20,632 bases of DNA, taken from positions 1 to 20,632 of the forward strand of contig JAWOCD010000063.1 of NCBI GenBank assembly GCA_046483985.1. Direction: 5' to 3'. Position numbers and translations under genes: made by a program. The notes beneath the pieces were generated by a model that was not told the origin of the DNA, ran no database searches, and saw only the letters and a list, made by a program, of their open reading frames with translations. Of the stretch, positions 141-18,631 are shown piece after piece; within the stretch, counting starts at the first letter, position 1; the number at the start of each line of letters is the position of its first letter. Source of the DNA: Promethearchaeia archaeon (GTDB lineage Archaea > Asgardarchaeota > Lokiarchaeia > Sigyniarchaeales > SOKP01).

Positions 141-584
141 AGCAACGGCCCGAAATTTACTACAAATATCCCATGCGCTTTTATCCCAAAATCGTTCGAG
201 ATATTTTGGTATAAGACTGAGTAAATAGAAGAAAGAAAAGGAAAACAGAGAGAGAAAGAAGAAAAGAATATTTATTAATGCCCACATACCTCTAATAAGA
301 AGAAAAGGTTTTTATCTTTTATCGTTTATTCTTTATTCTCTTTTTTTTATGACAGAAATTTTTTAGGAATAATATCCTCATATCCCGAGCGTGGATTAAC
401 CGCATATTATGGCTGGACCCCTTCGACTAATTCATGGAAGCATGCTTGCTCTCCAATCCGAATGTCTCCATAATTTATGGAAAAATGAGCCAAGATGAAA
501 TTAATGGGAATTAGAATTTTGTTACCAATATATTTATATTCTGGGAAAATATTATATTTCTGTAATTATTGATTAAAATATAAA

Positions 585-2624: not shown

Positions 2625-3110
2625 TTATACATTCTTTTTGACCTTCTTCCAGCTCGCTAGTATATCTTTTGGGATTTCCACGACTGGAACAAACATATCG
2701 AATCCCTTAGAGATGCCGTAAGACTTCATTGGGAAAATTCTGAGCATAATTGGAACACCATATTTCTTAATCTCGGTCAAAAATTCGATGGTCCGATCGA
2801 TATCATAGACGACTTGGGTTTGCAAAAATTCTGCGCCCGCTTCAGCTTTTCGCTTGATTTTGAGCACTTCAGCCATCATCGGATCCGCATTTGGATTGGC
2901 CGCTCCCCCGATATCCAGCGTCGGCGGACATTCAATTTCTTTTCCATTAATCGTGCCTTTATCTACCATCTCTCTTACTTGTTAGATGAGGGTTGCCGAA
3001 TCCAAATCGAATACAGGTTTCGCTTCGGGCATATCTCCCATTGCTGGATGGTCTCCTGTGTGTGTGGGGCACTATTAATTTTCCTTCATCGAAAGCACCA
3101 GTAAGCCATT
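2625..3110 (-). pseudogene. metF: Methylenetetrahydrofolate reductase (MetF/MTHFR family) remnant: N-terminally truncated, with in-frame stops
   Basis: One minus frame reads ..KEN**CPTHTGDHPAMGDMPEAKPVFDLDSATLI*QVREMVDKGTINGKEIECPPTLDIGGAANPNADP...AGAEFLQTQVVYD...PIMLRIFPM. These are MTHFR-like motifs (TGDhP, AKpVFDLDS, GaANP, AGA.F.qTQ). In-frame stops are TAA at 2982-2984, TAG at 3072-3074 and TAA at 3075-3077. There is no room for the N-terminal ~100 aa before the next gene. The upper boundary is approximate. Confidence 0.6.
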
Positions 3111-4046: not shown

Positions 4047-7000
4047 TTATTCAGACCTTTCATACTTAGGCAATAGTAAAACAACTCGGGACCCCTTAGT
4101 ATAGTCCCCTTCGATTCTATTTTCAATCCAAATTTCACCATTGGAAATCTTTATGAGTTTCTTCACAATTGAGAGCCCAATACCCAATCCCCTACTAGTA
4201 TTATCTTTAATGGGAGGTCTCTCTTCCAAAATGATTTCCTTCTGTTGATCCCTTATTCCGATGCCATTATCTTCAATAGAGATCTTGTAAAATTCGTTAT
4301 CCTTTTGTTTATAGTTTCCTACTTTGATATTAATTCTTTTAACTTCACTCTCGTTATGTACTATTGCATTATTAAGTAAATTTTGTATCGCCTCATCCAG
4401 AAACTTTGACGCGTAAACGATGAGTGAATCTTCGGGGTAATCAAATTTTATTTCAATATTTTCTTCTGCAAAATCTTTTTCGACAATGGATATTTGTTTT
4501 TTTATCATATCTATTAAATCCAGGGGAGTAGTTTGGGCAACTCTTTTATCAATTCGGGTAAGTTTTTGAATACTTTCTACTAATTTTGCACCTCTCTTGA
4601 TTTGCTCCTCCATCAATTCTACTGTTTCTCTATCTTTCCCCTCAATATTTGCTTTAAGCTGATTGCAACTTAAATTGAGAATAGTTAAGAGATTATTAAA
4701 ATCGTGAGTAACCAAATCTTGATAAAATTCTGTTCGTTTATATGCTTCTCTGTATTTTTTCTCCGATTTTTTCAATTTCTCTCTGGTTATTTTTTTTTCC
4801 GTGATATCAAAAAATGTAAGTATGACTCCTTTTATCCGCCCTTCTTCGCTTTTATAGGGCATTATACGCATTCTATACCATTTGTCGGACTCAGTTTCAA
4901 CATCCTTTTCAATGGAGTTTAAATCCTTTTGTACTTTTAAGATATCATCAATTAAGTTATCGTACTTAAGCTTTGAAGAGATATCGCGTATATTTCTTCC
5001 TAAATCATTATCAATTACTCTAAATATCTCTTTAACAGGAGGGGTAAATCTTTTTATTTCCAAATCGGGCCCTAAAAATATTGTCGAAATCTGACTACTT
5101 CTGATAAGATTGTTAAGATCGTTGTTTAACCTTGTTAATTCTCTGATCTTATTTTCGAGTTCATTATTAACGCTCATCAATTCTTCGTTTACAGATTGCA
5201 GTTCTTCTCTGGAGGATTGTAATTCTTCGCTAGTGCTTTTTAGTTCTTCATTTGACGATTGATATTCTTCATTTGCAGATTGTAATCTTTTATTGGCATT
5301 CTCTAACTCTTCCACTGTCGCTTTTAAATGACTTCGAGTTGCCTCTAATTCGTTTTCAAGTTGTTTTATTCGCCTTTGAGCCATTTTATCAGTTATGTTT
5401 TCGAATTTGTTCTCTGTTAAATCGATGGAATTTATAAAACTCTCCTCGAATACAATCAATAAAAGCTTTTCGTTTTCATAACGCTTTCTTATTGGGCGAA
5501 CGATTAGATTTGTTCTAATCTTATCGCCATTAGATTTTATATCAATATTTTTAAATTTTATTTCTTCTCCCAAATTTCGTGCTTTTTTAATCGCAGTAGT
5601 TAATATAATATCTAATCCTTTCCGTGCCATCTTAAGAATATTAAATTTTGCTTTCCCTACTGGAGGTTCAAGATATTTGCCCGTTCGACCATGGATATAT
5701 ATTATTTCATTATCAGCATTTATTATTATACTTGAGGGAGAATATTCCTTTAGAATGAGATTATTCATTAATTTTTGATAATTTAATTCTTCTTTTTCCT
5801 CTTTTTCTTTTTCAAGGGTTTTATCCTCGGTTGGTATTGTAATTTCGTGATCAATTAATGGAGGAAAAGCTCTTAAATGCGGAACTCTGTGAATGGTTTT
5901 TTCTTCTTTCTTATATATCTTAGAATTTTTAGCTACTTCAGAAAACGATTTGGAGAAGTCTCGTACCGATTCTGAATTTCCGAGAAATAAATAACCCTCC
6001 TTTTTCAATGAATAGTGAAATATGTCGAATAATTTTTTTTGGATATCGATTTTCAGAAAGATTAAAAGATTTCTACAACTGATTAAATCCAAATCAGAAA
6101 AAGGAGGATCTGTAATAACATTATGAACAGAAAAGATAATCATGTTTCTAATCTCCTTTTTTACTTTATAAGTACTATCTTCCTGATTGAAGTACTCTTC
6201 AAGGTATTTGTCCTTGATATCAACCCCAACATTTTCGGGATAAACTCCTGATCGGGCTCTGCTTATGGCAACTTCATTCGGGTCGCTGGCAAAAATCATT
6301 ACTTTATTATTTTTTTGCTTCTTATCCAAATATTCTTTAAGTAGGATGGCAATTGAATAGGCTTCTTCGCCCGTAGAGCAACCGACTATCCAAATTCGAA
6401 TTTTATCGTTTTTATCTTTATTACTAACTATTTTCGGAATGACAAGATCTTTTAACTTTTCAAAAGTGCTCTTATCCCTAAAGAATTCTGTAACCCCGAT
6501 TAAAATTTCAGAGAAAAGGTCCCTTATTTCAGTAGGGTGGTGTTTTAAATATTGAGCATATTCTTTAATTTGTGCTATATTGTTAACTGCCATTCTCTTT
6601 GAAATTCTTCTGCTTAAGGTAGAATTTTTATATACTAAAATTTCTTGTCCCTTGTTCCTCTTTAAAACTTGTAAAATAGGATTGAGATCACGATCAAGCT
6701 GTTGAGATAGGTGGGTATAATTCATCTTAGGGAAGGGTTTGGCATAATTTTTTACATAACGAGTTAATTGTTTTGGTATCTCATCAATAGAAAGAACATA
6801 ATCAATATTAACGTGAGAAGCGGCGCTTTTTAACATACCAGGATATTCTGCCTCTTTAGGATCTTGAATGACCGCAATTCCTCCCCGACCTTTAATTTCT
6901 CTTAATCCCAATGTTCCATCTGTACCCGTACCAGACATTAAAACACCAATCGATTTATTTTCTAATTCCTTTCCCAAGGAACGAAAGAAAAAATCTATGG

Positions 7001-7313
7001 GTAGTCTTTGCCCTCTCGGTTTTTCCGGGTCTTTGAGATAGAATTTTCCTTCTTTGAGGGATGCGTTCTTTCCTGGAGGGACTATATAAGCAATATCTTT
7101 AGCAATTTTTTCTTTCTCTTCCATGAATTTTATCTCTAAATTCGTATTTTTCGCGAGGATACTAATTAATTCTGTTTTATAAGTTGGATCCATGTGTTTT
7201 ACTATAATAAATGACATATCTGGCTTATCAGAGACATTTTCAAAAAATGTTTCTAATGCTTTTAAACTGCCAGCGGAACATCCAATTCCGACAATTGGGA
7301 ACGTATATTTCAT
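4047..7313 (-). CDS. Multidomain sensor: CheB-type methylesterase + CheR-type methyltransferase + coiled coil + PAS + histidine kinase (HisKA-like + HATPase_c)
   Basis: N-terminus IVGIGCSAGSLKALETFF...VLMSGTGTDGTLG is CheB-like. TEFFRD...IWIVGCSTGEEAYSIAILL is the CheR SAM-binding region. The EEL.S.NEEL heptad run (ANEEYQSSNEELKSTSEELQSSREELQSVNEEL) is typical of this fusion family. A PAS block follows (..WYRMRIMPYKSEEGRIKGVILTFFDITEKK). The H-box is DLVTHDFNNLL. The ATPase N/G boxes are NLLNNAIVH and EDNGIGI...GLGIGLSIVKKL. Confidence 0.85.
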   Translation of the reverse strand: MKYTFPIVGIGCSAGSLKALETFFENVSDKPDMSFIIVKHMDPTYKTELISILAKNTNLEIKFMEEKEKIAKDIAYIVPPGKNASLKEGKFYLKDPEKPRGQRLPIDFFFRSLGKELENKSIGVLMSGTGTDGTLGLREIKGRGGIAVIQDPKEAEYPGMLKSAASHVNIDYVLSIDEIPKQLTRYVKNYAKPFPKMNYTHLSQQLDRDLNPILQVLKRNKGQEILVYKNSTLSRRISKRMAVNNIAQIKEYAQYLKHHPTEIRDLFSEILIGVTEFFRDKSTFEKLKDLVIPKIVSNKDKNDKIRIWIVGCSTGEEAYSIAILLKEYLDKKQKNNKVMIFASDPNEVAISRARSGVYPENVGVDIKDKYLEEYFNQEDSTYKVKKEIRNMIIFSVHNVITDPPFSDLDLISCRNLLIFLKIDIQKKLFDIFHYSLKKEGYLFLGNSESVRDFSKSFSEVAKNSKIYKKEEKTIHRVPHLRAFPPLIDHEITIPTEDKTLEKEKEEKEELNYQKLMNNLILKEYSPSSIIINADNEIIYIHGRTGKYLEPPVGKAKFNILKMARKGLDIILTTAIKKARNLGEEIKFKNIDIKSNGDKIRTNLIVRPIRKRYENEKLLLIVFEESFINSIDLTENKFENITDKMAQRRIKQLENELEATRSHLKATVEELENANKRLQSANEEYQSSNEELKSTSEELQSSREELQSVNEELMSVNNELENKIRELTRLNNDLNNLIRSSQISTIFLGPDLEIKRFTPPVKEIFRVIDNDLGRNIRDISSKLKYDNLIDDILKVQKDLNSIEKDVETESDKWYRMRIMPYKSEEGRIKGVILTFFDITEKKITREKLKKSEKKYREAYKRTEFYQDLVTHDFNNLLTILNLSCNQLKANIEGKDRETVELMEEQIKRGAKLVESIQKLTRIDKRVAQTTPLDLIDMIKKQISIVEKDFAEENIEIKFDYPEDSLIVYASKFLDEAIQNLLNNAIVHNESEVKRINIKVGNYKQKDNEFYKISIEDNGIGIRDQQKEIILEERPPIKDNTSRGLGIGLSIVKKLIKISNGEIWIENRIEGDYTKGSRVVLLLPKYERSE

Positions 7314-17571: not shown

Positions 17572-17794
17572 GGTTATTCCATTTATTTATTTTTCTTAAT
17601 TCTTCCTTAATGATGATATTTCTGAGTAGAGTATAAATTGATATAAAATAATAACGTTAATTGACTATATAAATTTTTTAATCTTTCCTTTTAAGGTTTT
17701 TTACAAAAAGTTTAATTAATACATTTTATTATACTATTCACTTAGTAGGTAATAAACTTAAAATAAGAAAGATTATTACTCATGTATGTGGAAT

Positions 17795-17978
17795 TATAAC
17801 CACATAAATATAGCATTTCGCTACGCGCCGGACACATCCGAACCCGGCAGTTAAACAGATTGCTCGTTATGGCAAGTACTTCCGTTGTTAACGGCGGGAA
17901 ACCATAAACTGTGAGTTCGCTCACGGTCATAGGGCATTTGGATAATACCCGGACGCGCGTATGATTTATGTGGTTATA
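17795..17978 (+). rRNA. 5S rRNA gene (archaeal type) with ~58 extra nt between helix V and the 3' strand of helix I
   Basis: GC-rich island in AT-rich DNA. Helix I: 15 perfect bp, 17795-17809 / 17964-17978. Loop A: AUAGC. Helix II: AGCA 17812-15 / UGCU 17861-64. Helix III: GCCGG 17827-31 / CCGGC 17844-48, enclosing loop C ACACAUCCGAAC (universal CCGAAC), then CAGUUAAAC. Helix V: AUGG 17869-72 / CCAU 17902-05. Loop E: AGUA 17875-78 opposite GAA 17898-900. Helix IV hairpin: CCGUU-GUU-AACGG 17882-94. Spacing from the 5' end to CCGAAC is canonical (about 43 nt). Ends are good to about +/-5 nt. Confidence 0.85.
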
Positions 17979-18073
17979 TCTTGATTTCCCTTATTCTGTT
18001 TCGTTTCTTAATATCTTTTTAAGAAGAGCATCGTTCTATTTAATTATAAAATGAAAAGCTGACGAAAAAAAAG

Positions 18074-18631
18074 ATGGTCCTATTCCAACTTATCTTTCAA
18101 AATGATTCGCTCATCCAATATCTCATAAACGGGGCGATTGTGGTCTCCGGCCGAAGTCTGGACATACTCAGTACCCGGTACGTGACCAGAGATCTAAAAC
18201 TTGAAACGAATAAATTGGCGCAGAAGGTAGGATGGAAAGGGATGGTCCTCATTCAAATTCCGCTTCTCATTTTGGGGGCGCTGGATTTTTATTTTGCCTT
18301 TTTCATTTTCATATGGTCGTTATTCCTAACTGCAAATAACATTCAGGGAAGCTGGTACGTAAAACATGTGGGAGAGGAGGAATATCACAAAGAATTGGAG
18401 GAGAGCGTGAAGCGCTCCAGCAACTTAAAAATTATAATCGGAGAAATCTCTTATTTACTTTCCTTTACCTGTTCGGGGATCTTAATTCTGGTATTTTTAG
18501 TAGTGTATCGCGATTATGTGGCTATTTTTTTCATTGCCTTGGCTCTCATCTTTCAAGGAATTTTGGCCACACTTCGTTCGGTGAGTTATTTAATTGAGTT
18601 AAGAAAAGAAGAAGAAAGCAAAGACGATTAA
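18074..18631 (+). CDS. Hypothetical polytopic membrane protein (possibly DUF5658-like N-terminal region)
   Basis: Four to five hydrophobic segments. SLDILSTRYVTRDLKLETNKLA loosely resembles the LD..(S/T)T......E.NP motif of DUF5658 proteins. The C-terminus is acidic. Confidence 0.5.
   Translation: MVLFQLIFQNDSLIQYLINGAIVVSGRSLDILSTRYVTRDLKLETNKLAQKVGWKGMVLIQIPLLILGALDFYFAFFIFIWSLFLTANNIQGSWYVKHVGEEEYHKELEESVKRSSNLKIIIGEISYLLSFTCSGILILVFLVVYRDYVAIFFIALALIFQGILATLRSVSYLIELRKEEESKDD

What the first reader, a model, noticed from the sequence alone, without database searches (positions are those of the whole stretch)
17795..17978. Stand-alone 5S rRNA gene about 60 nt longer than canonical, with an insertion at the helix I / helix V junction
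Seen in sequence: every canonical 5S element is present and in normal register (loop A AUAGC, helices II and III, loop C with CCGAAC, GUUAAAC, loop E AGUA/GAA, helix IV hairpin, helix V AUGG/CCAU). However, 58 nt (17906-17963) separate the helix V 3' strand from the perfectly complementary 15-bp helix I 3' strand. The RNA would be about 184 nt rather than about 120-125 nt. The extra segment folds by eye into two hairpins: GUGAG-UUCG-CUCAC (17911-17924) and GGGCAUU-UGGAU-AAUACCC (17932-17950). That would turn the loop A three-way junction into a more complex junction. Established knowledge: 5S rRNA length is among the most conserved of any RNA. The classic exception I recall is the ~108-nt insertion in Halococcus 5S rRNA. 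Asgard archaea are known for oversized expansion segments in large-subunit rRNA. Inference: this may be a 5S expansion segment, an excised intervening sequence, or a decaying gene copy. Helix I is also unusually long and AU-rich compared with the GC-rich core.
Basis: partly seen in the sequence, partly recalled or inferred. Interest (0 to 1): 0.8.

Follow-up and report, generated by a model that had tools for sequence, protein, structure and literature searches.

The report
Rewired, oversized 5S rRNA of Lokiarchaeia
This is a real, conserved 184-nt 5S ribosomal RNA gene of Loki-type Asgard archaea, but the "extra" 58 nt are not a simple insert: they supply the RNA's helix I, loop A and one strand of helix II, so the molecule is wired like a circularly permuted 5S, which standard annotation tools miss.

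Summary
The oversized 5S-like gene at 17795-17978 (+) is real. The window is a contig of a Promethearchaeia (Loki-type Asgard) MAG. The same gene, with the same extra segment, sits in the same gene neighbourhood in 30 distinct related loci.

It matches Rfam 5S (RF00001) only weakly: 33.1 bits against a threshold of 38. None of 19 related Asgard loci reaches the threshold, whereas ordinary archaeal 5S genes with the same loop C motif score 75-106 bits.

Comparative analysis does not support a canonical core plus insert. The helix II 3' strand (17856-17865) pairs and covaries with the "insert" (17932-17940), not with the 5'-proximal strand, which pairs in only 19.5% of cells. The hairpin at 17909-17926 takes the place of helix I, and UCAUA (17927-17931) is loop A. 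The 15-bp AU-rich terminal helix and a small conserved hairpin form an extension that leaves the core at loop B. This rewired structure is 90.2% paired, with 28 of 56 pairs showing changes on both sides.

Two isoforms exist. The helix III/loop C hairpin lies either in the 5' part (as here) or in the 3' part.

No expression data were available. Whether this is the only 5S gene, and the size of the mature RNA, remain open.

The parts
17795..17978 (+). Whole 5S-type RNA gene (184 nt), delimited by the terminal helix
   Evidence: RF00001 match at 33.1 bits, E=4.1e-05. Fold z = -5.15. Homologous in 30 loci.
17795..17809 (+). Outer terminal helix, 5' strand (UAUAACCACAUAAAU). It pairs with 17964-17978.
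   Evidence: Helices 1 and 2 are 87-92% paired, and 9 of their 15 pairs change on both sides. In L138 the sequence is fully replaced (GAAAAAGAUAUUU/AAAUAUCUUUUUC) but the pairing is kept. RNAalifold recovers the helix independently.
17811..17823 (+). Small conserved hairpin UAGC-AUUUC-GCUA, at the place where a canonical helix II 5' strand would be
   Evidence: 95.5% paired, with 2 of 4 pairs changing on both sides. Variants: GUAGUG-UCU-CACUAC in L009 and AUAGC..GCUAU in L074 and L117.
17825..17827 (+). Mini-helix M, 5' strand (GCG). It pairs with 17956-17958 (CGC).
   Evidence: 95.4% paired. GCG:CGC becomes GUG:CAC in L009. It is only 3 bp, so this is the least secure helix.
17828..17847 (+). 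Helix III (CCGG 17828-31 with CCGG 17844-47) and loop C (17832-17843, ACACAUCCGAAC)
   Evidence: 100% paired. It aligns to the Rfam consensus with high posterior probability. The partner is ambiguous, because the CCGG at 17949-52 could also pair.
17848..17856 (+). Loop B 3' strand (CAGUUAAAC). G17850 and U17851 pair with C17948 and A17947.
   Evidence: 100% paired. L001 shows the double change AC:GU to GC:GC.
17856..17865 (+). Helix II 3' strand (CAGAU-U-GCUC; U17861 is bulged)
   Evidence: It pairs with 17932-17940. Seven of the 9 pairs change on both sides. Mean duplex energy is -7.1 kcal/mol with the insert strand against -3.9 with the 5'-proximal strand.
17867..17907 (+). Gamma domain: helix V (17867-72 with 17902-07), loop E, helix IV (17882-87 with 17892-97) and loop D
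   Evidence: Helix V is 98.9% paired, with 4 of 6 pairs changing on both sides. Rfam alignment.
17909..17926 (+). Capped hairpin CUGUGAG-UUCG-CUCACGG, which takes the place of helix I at the loop A junction
   Evidence: 99.5% paired, with 3 of 7 pairs changing on both sides (GUGAG/CUCAC, GUAAG/CUUAC, GUUGC/GCUAC).
17927..17931 (+). Loop A (UCAUA). It matches the 5S consensus CAUA that follows helix I.
   Evidence: Invariant TCAT[AG]G in all 30 loci. The in-silico permuted construct aligns to a canonical archaeal 5S profile from position 5.
17932..17940 (+). Helix II 5' strand, located inside the 'insert' (GGGC-AUUUG)
   Evidence: Covaries with 17856-17865. A blind register search gives 90% paired, against 57-69% at best for the 5'-proximal strand.
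17941..17948 (+). Loop B 5' strand (GAUAAUAC, compare Rfam consensus gAaacAC)
   Evidence: Nearly invariant. The AC:GU pairs with 17850-51 are 100% paired.
17949..17952 (+). Spare CCGG, the site that carries helix III and loop C in the other isoform
   Evidence: Invariant in all 30 loci. In L001-L004, L009, L136, L138 and L139 the loop C hairpin follows this CCGG instead.
17964..17978 (+). Outer terminal helix, 3' strand (AUUUAUGUGGUUAUA)
   Evidence: Same evidence as for 17795-17809.
17705..17722 (+). Archaeal promoter-like box AAAAAGTTTAATTAATAC (BRE/TATA-like), about 75 nt upstream. Inferred only.
   Evidence: Conserved in L001, L005, the L012 clade, L137, L139 and L010. No transcript data.

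Best explanation
This is most likely the native 5S rRNA gene of a Promethearchaeia (Lokiarchaeia-type Asgard) archaeon, in a rewired form shared by the lineage.

Shown by comparative analysis:
- The beta-domain 3' half and the gamma domain are ordinary 5S (helix III/loop C, loop B 3' strand, helix II 3' strand, helix V, loop E, helix IV).
- The loop A three-way junction is closed by a 7-bp hairpin capped with UUCG (17909-17926), not by the RNA's two ends.
- The strand that follows this hairpin supplies loop A, the helix II 5' strand and the loop B 5' strand (17927-17948).
- Topologically the core is therefore a circularly permuted 5S. The canonical ends are joined by a tetraloop, and the real 5' and 3' ends leave the core at loop B / helix III.
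- There they form a roughly 65-nt extension: a 3-bp helix, a small conserved hairpin and a 15-bp AU-rich terminal helix.
- The helix III/loop C hairpin can sit on either side of this extension. Type P has it in the 5' part, as here. Type S has it in the 3' part.

Inferred:
- The arrangement arose from a partial tandem duplication of a 5S gene, followed by loss of one or the other duplicated loop C hairpin.
- The RNA is transcribed from its own promoter, is assembled into the large subunit, and probably keeps the extension in the mature RNA.
For: Lineage and synteny:
- The flanking protein matches a Promethearchaeia MAG protein at 100% identity on a contig of the window's length, 20632 bp.
- The order small membrane gene / 5S / 185-aa gene / C25 peptidase is conserved.
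- All 20 Asgard hits of a loop C to loop E pattern scan carry the extra segment. One of them is on the complete chromosome CP070831.1.

Rewired structure on alignment A2 (30 sequences):
- 90.2% of cells are paired, against 30-42% when the partners are slid.
- 28 of 56 pairs change on both sides.
- 0 of 500 shuffles reach any of the five measures.
- RNAalifold, given no hint, recovers the outer helix, the insert:core helix II, helices V and IV, and the capped hairpin.

Helix II variants, core strand / insert strand:
- UGCUC/GGGCA in the window.
- UAUUC/GAAUA in L001 and L005.
- UAUUG/CAAUA in L136.
- CUUGU/ACAAG in L012.
- CUCGAAUAC/GUACUCGAG in L137.
- The loop B pair changes from AC:GU to GC:GC in L001.

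Against the natural-order reading:
- Natural-order helix II is 19.5% paired, proximal helix I 48.1% and hairpin b 44.8%, none better than the controls.
- Blind register searches agree.
- In-silico permuted constructs fit a profile of 19 canonical archaeal 5S better than natural order in 30 of 30 cases. For the window the scores are 38.7 against 23.7 bits, and the alignment starts at profile position 5 instead of 29.

Precedent: a 5S whose native ends are closed by a tetraloop functions in E. coli ribosomes when opened at loop C or D (PMC7283268).
Against: - There are no transcript or ribosome data. Expression, mature ends and incorporation into the ribosome are all inferred.
- All sequences come from MAGs or metagenome contigs, and many of the 30 are close relatives. 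The independent covariation events number roughly 6-8 per helix, not 30.
- A canonical 5S elsewhere in these genomes cannot be excluded.
- The helix III partner is ambiguous. Three CCGG elements can pair in three ways of equal predicted energy, about -48 kcal/mol, and RNAalifold chose b:c.
- All three rewired models are less stable than the unconstrained MFE of -68.9 kcal/mol.
- The mini-helix M is only 3 bp.
- Sequence similarity between the 5' region and the 'insert' is not significant in most lineages. The window gives z=3.07 (13 of 500 shuffles as good); the others range from -1.4 to 1.5. The duplication origin therefore rests on architecture alone.
Confidence: 0.72

Rival explanations
1. 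The rewired core is right, but the terminal helix, small hairpin and M helix are only a leader-trailer processing stem. Under this reading the mature RNA is a roughly 125-nt single-piece circularly permuted 5S, running approximately 17828-17952.
For: - The terminal helix is long, AU-rich and at the very ends, like rRNA processing stems.
- In several loci complementarity continues into the flanks, down to -32.7 kcal/mol.
- L138 replaced the whole helix sequence while keeping the pairing.
- Both isoforms would yield one contiguous permuted core after trimming.
- In the window, T-runs that could terminate transcription lie well beyond the helix.
Against: - The helix sequence AACCACAUAAAU and the small hairpin, loop included, are nearly invariant across loci whose neighbouring protein is only 55-65% identical.
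- In the L012 clade a TATA-like box (CCTTATATAATGG) lies about 30 nt upstream of the helix start. That would put the transcription start at the helix itself. This is inferred, not measured.
- I saw no bulge-helix-bulge motif by eye, and did not search for one formally.
Confidence: 0.2
2. One reading: a canonical 5S core with a self-contained expansion segment of two hairpins inserted between helix V and helix I. Loop A would become a 4- or 5-way junction, as in Halococcus.
For: - The apparent insertion site equals the Halococcus site, E. coli positions 108/109 (PMC7530397).
- In the window alone, a 5-pair helix II with the 5' strand can be drawn from the Rfam alignment.
- Both hairpins can be drawn in the window sequence.
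Against: - Natural-order helix II is 19.5% paired across relatives and hairpin b 44.8%, neither better than shuffled or slid controls.
- The insert covaries with the core instead.
- Type S genes lack loop C in the 'core' altogether and carry it in the 'insert'. A passive expansion segment cannot accommodate that.
- The predicted energy of this model is -39.7 kcal/mol, against about -48 for the rewired models.
Confidence: 0.05
3. A non-ribosomal or decaying 5S-derived element, such as a relic of a tandem duplication. The functional canonical 5S would be encoded elsewhere.
For: - The RF00001 score is below threshold here and in all relatives.
- L010 carries a truncated 5S-like copy next to a complete one, so duplication and decay do occur in this lineage.
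- The rest of the genome could not be searched.
Against: - Purifying selection acts on the structure: 28 pairs change on both sides and 90% of cells are paired.
- Loop A, loop C, loop E and the GGGAA motif are invariant.
- The gene is syntenic and present in every related locus examined.
- No canonical copy appeared among the Asgard hits of the core-pattern scan.
- Closed Heimdallarchaeum genomes were reported to have no predictable 5S (PMC8813620). That fits divergent Asgard 5S genes better than canonical ones.
Confidence: 0.03

Closest known systems
Canonical archaeal 5S rRNA (Rfam RF00001)
   Same: Helix III/loop C with CAUCCGAAC, loop B (AAGUUAAAC and gAaacAC-like GAUAAUAC), helix II with a bulge, helix V, loop E (AGUAC...GGGAA), helix IV and the loop A sequence CAUA are all present. 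They can be arranged into the standard three-way junction.
   Different: - The order of strands along the gene differs. The helix I equivalent is a capped hairpin, and the helix II 5' strand lies 3' of the gamma domain.
- The RNA ends exit at loop B.
- The gene is 184 nt rather than about 120.
- The CM score is 33 bits, against 75-106 for ordinary archaeal 5S with the same loop C motif.
Permuted mitochondrial 5S rRNA of brown algae and other stramenopiles (Valach et al. 2014, PMC4267664; model mtPerm-5S)
   Same: The conventional open-ended helix I is replaced by a hairpin. The permutation is present in the gene and, as inferred here, in the final RNA. The gene is missed by the general 5S model.
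   Different: - In the algal RNAs the ends lie at the alpha/gamma intersection and the three-way junction is left open.
- Here the junction is closed, the ends lie at loop B / helix III, and they are held by a long extra helix plus a hairpin.
- This is a cytosolic archaeal ribosome, not an organelle.
Engineered circularly permuted 5S (cp5S) in E. coli (Huang et al. 2020, PMC7283268)
   Same: The native 5' and 3' ends are joined by a 4-nt loop, and the molecule is opened elsewhere in the beta or gamma domain. Those ribosomes were functional.
   Different: The engineered version is opened at loop C or D and fused into 23S rRNA. The RNA here is natural, free-standing, opened at loop B / helix III, and carries an extension domain.
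Expanded 5S rRNAs of Halococcus and other prokaryotes (Stepanov and Fox 2021, PMC7812874; Tirumalai et al. 2020, PMC7530397)
   Same: Oversized prokaryotic 5S with the extra sequence apparently at the helix V / helix I boundary (positions 108/109). It is lineage-wide and overlooked in databases.
   Different: - In those RNAs the canonical core is intact and the insert folds on itself and projects away. Here the 'insert' is part of the core.
- Among archaea, that survey found expansions only in Halobacteriales.

Membership tests
5S rRNA (Rfam RF00001) | Covariance-model score at or above the gathering score (38 bits) | tested here: not met
   33.1 bits for the window, and no hit at the gathering threshold. 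None of 19 related Asgard loci reaches it. L005 reaches 38.1 bits in a permissive scan.
5S rRNA (Rfam RF00001) | Conserved beta and gamma domain motifs (helix III/loop C, loop B, helix V, loop E, helix IV) | tested here: met
   High posterior probabilities in the Rfam alignment. The natural-order sequence aligns to profile positions 29-106, and the permuted construct to positions 5-105. Helices III and V are 99-100% paired.
5S rRNA (Rfam RF00001) | Helix I formed by the 5' and 3' ends closes the loop A three-way junction | tested here: not met
   The proximal pairing is 48% paired. The terminal 15-bp helix does not abut loop A in the supported structure. A capped hairpin closes the junction instead and is 99.5% paired.
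5S rRNA (Rfam RF00001) | Helix II between the strand after loop A and the strand after loop B | tested here: met
   Met only in the permuted reading. The partner strand, 17932-17940, follows the true loop A at 17927-31, and 7 of 9 pairs change on both sides. It is not met with the 5'-proximal strand, which is 19.5% paired.
5S rRNA (Rfam RF00001) | Component of the large ribosomal subunit | not testable with these tools
   No transcript or ribosome data were available.
Expanded prokaryotic 5S rRNA (Halococcus type) | Intact canonical core, with an insert that base-pairs within itself and extends away | tested here: not met
   The insert pairs with the core helix II 3' strand and the loop B 3' strand. 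The second self-contained hairpin is not conserved.
Permuted 5S rRNA (mtPerm-5S type) | Helix I replaced by a hairpin | tested here: met
   The hairpin at 17909-17926 shows three pairs with changes on both sides.
Permuted 5S rRNA (mtPerm-5S type) | RNA ends at the alpha/gamma intersection, with an open three-way junction | tested here: not met
   The junction strands are continuous: V3-A-hairpin-UCAUA-II5' and II3-G-V5. The ends lie beyond loop B.
Archaeal intron / intervening sequence | Bulge-helix-bulge motif at both boundaries, and a functional RNA after excision | not tested
   No formal BHB search was run. Excising 17908-17963 would remove the only covarying helix II 5' strand and loop A, which argues against this reading.

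The most novel reading that the evidence does not exclude
Ribosomes of Lokiarchaeia-type Asgard archaea carry a naturally circularly permuted 5S rRNA with a roughly 65-nt extension domain at loop B. It would have arisen from a partial tandem duplication and now exists in two interconvertible topological isoforms, with loop C on either side of the extension. This would be the first such case in a cytosolic ribosome, and it would explain the 5S genes reported as missing from Asgard genomes.
Probability: 0.55. Interest if true: 0.88.

Novelty: new variant of a known kind. Interest (0 to 1): 0.8.

Why it matters
- **A break in a highly conserved architecture.** 5S rRNA is among the most conserved RNAs in length and architecture. 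Studies of Asgard rRNA expansions left it out as 'essentially constant' (PMC7594248). [quoted passage not shown] The two isoforms may be intermediate states of that change.
- **Genome annotation and quality grading.** RF00001 misses all 19 related loci tested at its gathering threshold. These genomes will therefore be annotated as lacking 5S, which affects genome-quality grading that asks for a 5S gene. One paper reports exactly this for closed Heimdallarchaeum genomes (PMC8813620).
- **Cell identification.** The extra domain would add density on the central protuberance. That could help identify Asgard cells in cryo-tomograms, as ES9 and ES39 already do (PMC9834061).

Tried and rejected
- **tRNA or other known RNA families in the window:** none found.
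- **Metagenome pattern scan:** I mis-specified the gap length (9-13 where it should have been about 7). L136 still proved useful as a second type S example.
- **Exact look-up of the 163-aa flanking protein:** not on record.
- **L015 and L016 (homologue P0006):** the contig ends before the 5S position, so they gave no information.
- **Sequence-similarity test for the duplication origin** (5' region against 'insert', local alignment against 500 shuffles): not significant except weakly in the window. The origin is therefore reported as an inference.
- **Thermodynamics:** could not choose among the three possible helix III pairings, which all come out near -48 kcal/mol.
rejected on pair counts.
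- **Intron or intervening sequence:** rejected by argument, since excision would remove the covarying helix II strand. I did not run a formal BHB search.
- **Bacterial promoter/terminator scan:** not used, because it does not apply to archaea.
- **Literature searches for an Asgard 5S expansion or permutation:** nothing found in the held library.

Full report
**1. What is in the sequence**

The region 17795-17978 (+) reads as a 5S-like RNA with a perfectly complementary 15-bp terminal helix, 17795-17809 with 17964-17978. At Rfam's gathering thresholds the whole window gives no match, and it holds no tRNA.

A permissive scan of 17650-18100 finds RF00001 at 17800-17917. The match covers the full model at E=4.1e-05 but scores only 33.1 bits, below the gathering score of 38. 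In that alignment helices I and II are marked as largely non-canonical.

The 184-nt stretch folds far better than shuffles (-68.9 kcal/mol, z=-5.15), and the terminal helix is present in both the MFE and the centroid structure.

**2. Source and relatives**

The downstream 185-aa protein (18074-18631) is 100% identical to a protein of a 'Promethearchaeia archaeon' MAG on a 20632-bp contig. It has 119 homologues, almost all from Loki-type Asgard assemblies. The surrounding genes fit this assignment: a Ras-family GTPase, a PIN domain protein and a C25 peptidase.

I fetched contigs that encode homologues of this protein. They show conserved gene order with an intergenic gap at the same place. The gap holds the same 5S-like gene with the same extra segment in L001-L008, L009-L014 and L137-L139. 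The gene is sometimes on the opposite strand relative to the neighbouring gene.

Twenty of them come from records labelled Promethearchaeota, Promethearchaeia, 'Hermod', 'Odin' or uncultured archaeon, and all 20 carry the extra segment. One lies on the complete chromosome CP070831.1. None of the bacterial or other archaeal hits carries it.

Ordinary archaeal 5S genes sharing the same loop C motif score 75-106 bits with RF00001. None of 19 Asgard loci reaches the gathering score.

**3. The extra segment is part of the core**

Reading the homologues side by side showed two things that a passive insert cannot explain.

First, the segment after GUUAAAC is the canonical helix II 3' strand. It varies between lineages, and the middle of the 'insert' varies with it:

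| Locus | Core strand | Insert strand |
|---|---|---|
| window | UGCUC (plus CAGAU) | GGGCA (plus AUUUG) |
| L001, L005 | UAUUC | GAAUA |
| L136 | UAUUG | CAAUA |
| L012 clade | CUUGU | ACAAG |
| L137 | CUCGAAUAC | GUACUCGAG |
| L139, L009 | CUCG | CGAG |

Second, five lineages (L001-L004, L009/L010, L136, L138 and L139) lack helix III and loop C at the normal place. They carry it inside the 'insert', directly after the invariant AAUACCCGG.

Read from the 3' strand of the first hairpin onward, the 'insert' is a textbook 5S 5' half:
- a helix I strand (CUCACGG);
- loop A (UCAUA; consensus CAUA);
- a helix II 5' strand;
- a loop B 5' strand (GAUAAUAC; consensus gAaacAC);
- a helix III 5' strand (CCGG).

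**4. Tests of the two readings**

- **Duplex energy.** The helix II 3' strand binds the insert strand at a mean of -7.1 kcal/mol. It binds the 5'-proximal strand at -3.9.
- **Fit to canonical 5S.** I built constructs permuted in silico to start at the hairpin's 3' strand. They fit a profile of 19 canonical archaeal 5S better than the natural order in 30 of 30 cases. For the window the scores are 38.7 against 23.7 bits; for type S they are 34-56 against 11-21. The permuted constructs align from profile position 5 or 6, while the natural order aligns only from position 29-46.
- **Permuted-frame structure.** With pairs anchored from the segment ends, the canonical 5S structure is 93% paired. Fifteen of 28 positions change on both sides, including the loop B pair AC:GU to GC:GC in L001.
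- **Blind register search.** The best values are 65% for a proximal helix I and 57-69% for helix II with the 5' strand. The insert strand gives 90% and the hairpin 99.5%.
- **Rewired structure on alignment A2.** A2 holds the 30 sequences in natural order. The rewired structure is 90.2% paired, against 30-42% when partners are slid. Twenty-eight of 56 pairs change on both sides, and 0 of 500 shuffles reach any of the five measures.
Natural-order helix II is 19.5% paired, proximal helix I 48.1% and hairpin b 44.8%. The overall value of 42.9% equals the shuffled mean of 43.6%.
- **RNAalifold on A2.** Given no structure, it recovers the outer helix, both parts of the insert:core helix II, helices V and IV, and the capped hairpin.

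**5. Resulting architecture in window coordinates**

| Element | Coordinates |
|---|---|
| Outer helix | 17795-17809 with 17964-17978 |
| Small conserved hairpin | 17811-14 with 17820-23 |
| 3-bp helix M | 17825-27 with 17956-58 |
| Helix III | 17828-31 with 17844-47 |
| Loop C | 17832-43 |
| Loop B pairs | 17850-51 with 17947-48 |
| Helix II | 17856-60 and 17862-65 with 17932-40 |
| Helix V | 17867-72 with 17902-07 |
| Helix IV | 17882-87 with 17892-97 |
| Capped hairpin (helix I equivalent) | 17909-15 with 17920-26 |
| Loop A | 17927-31 |
| Spare CCGG | 17949-52 |

Everything is nested. The loop A junction has the canonical strand connections: V3-A-hairpin, hairpin-UCAUA-II5', and II3-G-V5. 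The core is therefore a circularly permuted 5S. The real ends leave at loop B / helix III and carry a roughly 65-nt extension.

**6. What stays uncertain**

- **Helix III partner.** Three CCGG-type elements exist: 'a' at 17828-31, 'b' at 17844-47 and 'c' at 17949-52. They can pair a:b, b:c or a:c, all at about -48 kcal/mol. RNAalifold chose b:c. I favour a:b, because it gives the canonical loop C hairpin with its inner non-canonical pairs. Covariation cannot decide.
- **The spare CCGG.** It is invariant in all 30 loci, which is not what a useless scar would show. Its role is unexplained.
- **Mature size.** Near-invariance of the outer helix and hairpin sequences favours retention of the extension. 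So does a TATA-like box about 30 nt upstream of the helix in the L012 clade. The extension could still be a processing stem.
- **Copy number.** I could not search whole genomes.

**7. Origin (inference)**

The capped hairpin looks like an old helix I 3' strand abutting the helix I 5' strand of a second copy. The two isoforms look like alternative losses of one of two duplicated loop C hairpins.

Two details fit this. Type P 'CCGG-UC-ACGC' equals type S 'CCGG-UC[CCAUCCGAACCCGGAA]ACGC' with an internal deletion. Type S 'GCGCCGG-AAGUUAAAC' equals type P without its loop C module.

L010 carries a truncated P-like copy next to a complete type S gene, so paralogous copies do coexist.

Direct sequence similarity between the 5' region and the 'insert' is not significant in most lineages.

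**8. Comparison with what is known**

- A survey of prokaryotic 5S expansions found archaeal cases only in Halobacteriales. In all of them the insert folded on itself and the core stayed canonical (PMC7812874). The Halococcus insert sits between positions 108 and 109 and forms a four-way junction (PMC7530397).
- Permuted 5S is known from brown-algal mitochondria. There a hairpin replaces helix I, but the junction stays open and the ends lie at the alpha/gamma intersection (PMC4267664).
- Engineered 5S with its ends closed by a tetraloop works in E. coli (PMC7283268).
- Work on Asgard rRNA expansions excluded 5S (PMC7594248). Closed Heimdallarchaeum genomes were reported without a predictable 5S (PMC8813620).
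- I found no report of this arrangement in the held library. I file it as a new variant of a known kind.

Noticed in passing
L001 about 1919-2103; L009/L010 2129-2305 (-); L136 4930-5114 (-); L138 1486-1671 (-); L139 469-686 (-): A second isoform ('type S'). The helix III/loop C hairpin is absent from the 5' part (GCGCCGG is followed directly by AAGUUAAAC) and sits after AAUACCCGG in the 3' part. It occurs in at least five lineages, including the window's closest relative. RF00001 did not detect L001 or the type S gene of L010 at E<=0.1.
   Followed up: partly
L010 2749-2863 (-) and 2129-2305 (-): Two 5S-like genes lie in tandem. The upstream one is a P-like copy that stops after CUGUAAG and runs into a T-run, with no second half. 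The downstream one is a complete type S gene with its own AAAGTTTAATTA box. The truncated copy might fold as a near-canonical 5S (GCAAG:CUUGU as helix II), or it may be a pseudogene.
   Followed up: partly
L011 about 2745-2790 (-); L023, L030, L037 and L112 (alignment A2 columns 104-133 and 142-171): Some lineages carry a further insertion of about 30 nt in the helix IV / loop D region of the same 5S gene. It occurs at two different positions and each insertion can fold into its own hairpin.
   Followed up: no
L139 about 500-540 (-) (alignment A2 columns 247-276): L139 has an extra 30-nt hairpin (AACCAAC...GUGGUU) inserted inside loop C, a part of 5S that is normally very conserved.
   Followed up: no
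window 17661-17794: The 135 nt upstream of the gene are highly conserved in L001 and L005. The block includes a palindrome CCTTTTAAGG (17687-17696) and a BRE/TATA-like AAAAAGTTTAATTAATAC (17705-17722), which recurs about 75-115 nt upstream in distant relatives. This suggests a conserved leader or a second small transcript.
   Followed up: no
window 17782-17791: The leader sequence AUGUAUGUGG nearly copies the 3' strand of the outer helix (AUUUAUGUGG). It can pair with CCACAUA at 17800-17806, in competition with the terminal helix. It is conserved in L001 and L005. It may guide co-transcriptional folding.
   Followed up: no
window 17949-17952 and the equivalent position in all 30 loci: The 'spare' CCGG is invariant even though the favoured structure does not need it. 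It could pair with either strand of helix III, which raises the possibility of alternative conformations.
   Followed up: partly
L028 and L081 (both from MAG DZ3M.289): Two non-identical copies of the rewired 5S lie on two contigs of one MAG, and one copy is cut by a contig end. This could be true paralogues or a mixture of strains.
   Followed up: no
window 4047-7313 (-): A 1088-aa ORF combines CheB methylesterase, CheR methyltransferase, PAS and histidine-kinase ATPase domains in one protein.
   Followed up: no
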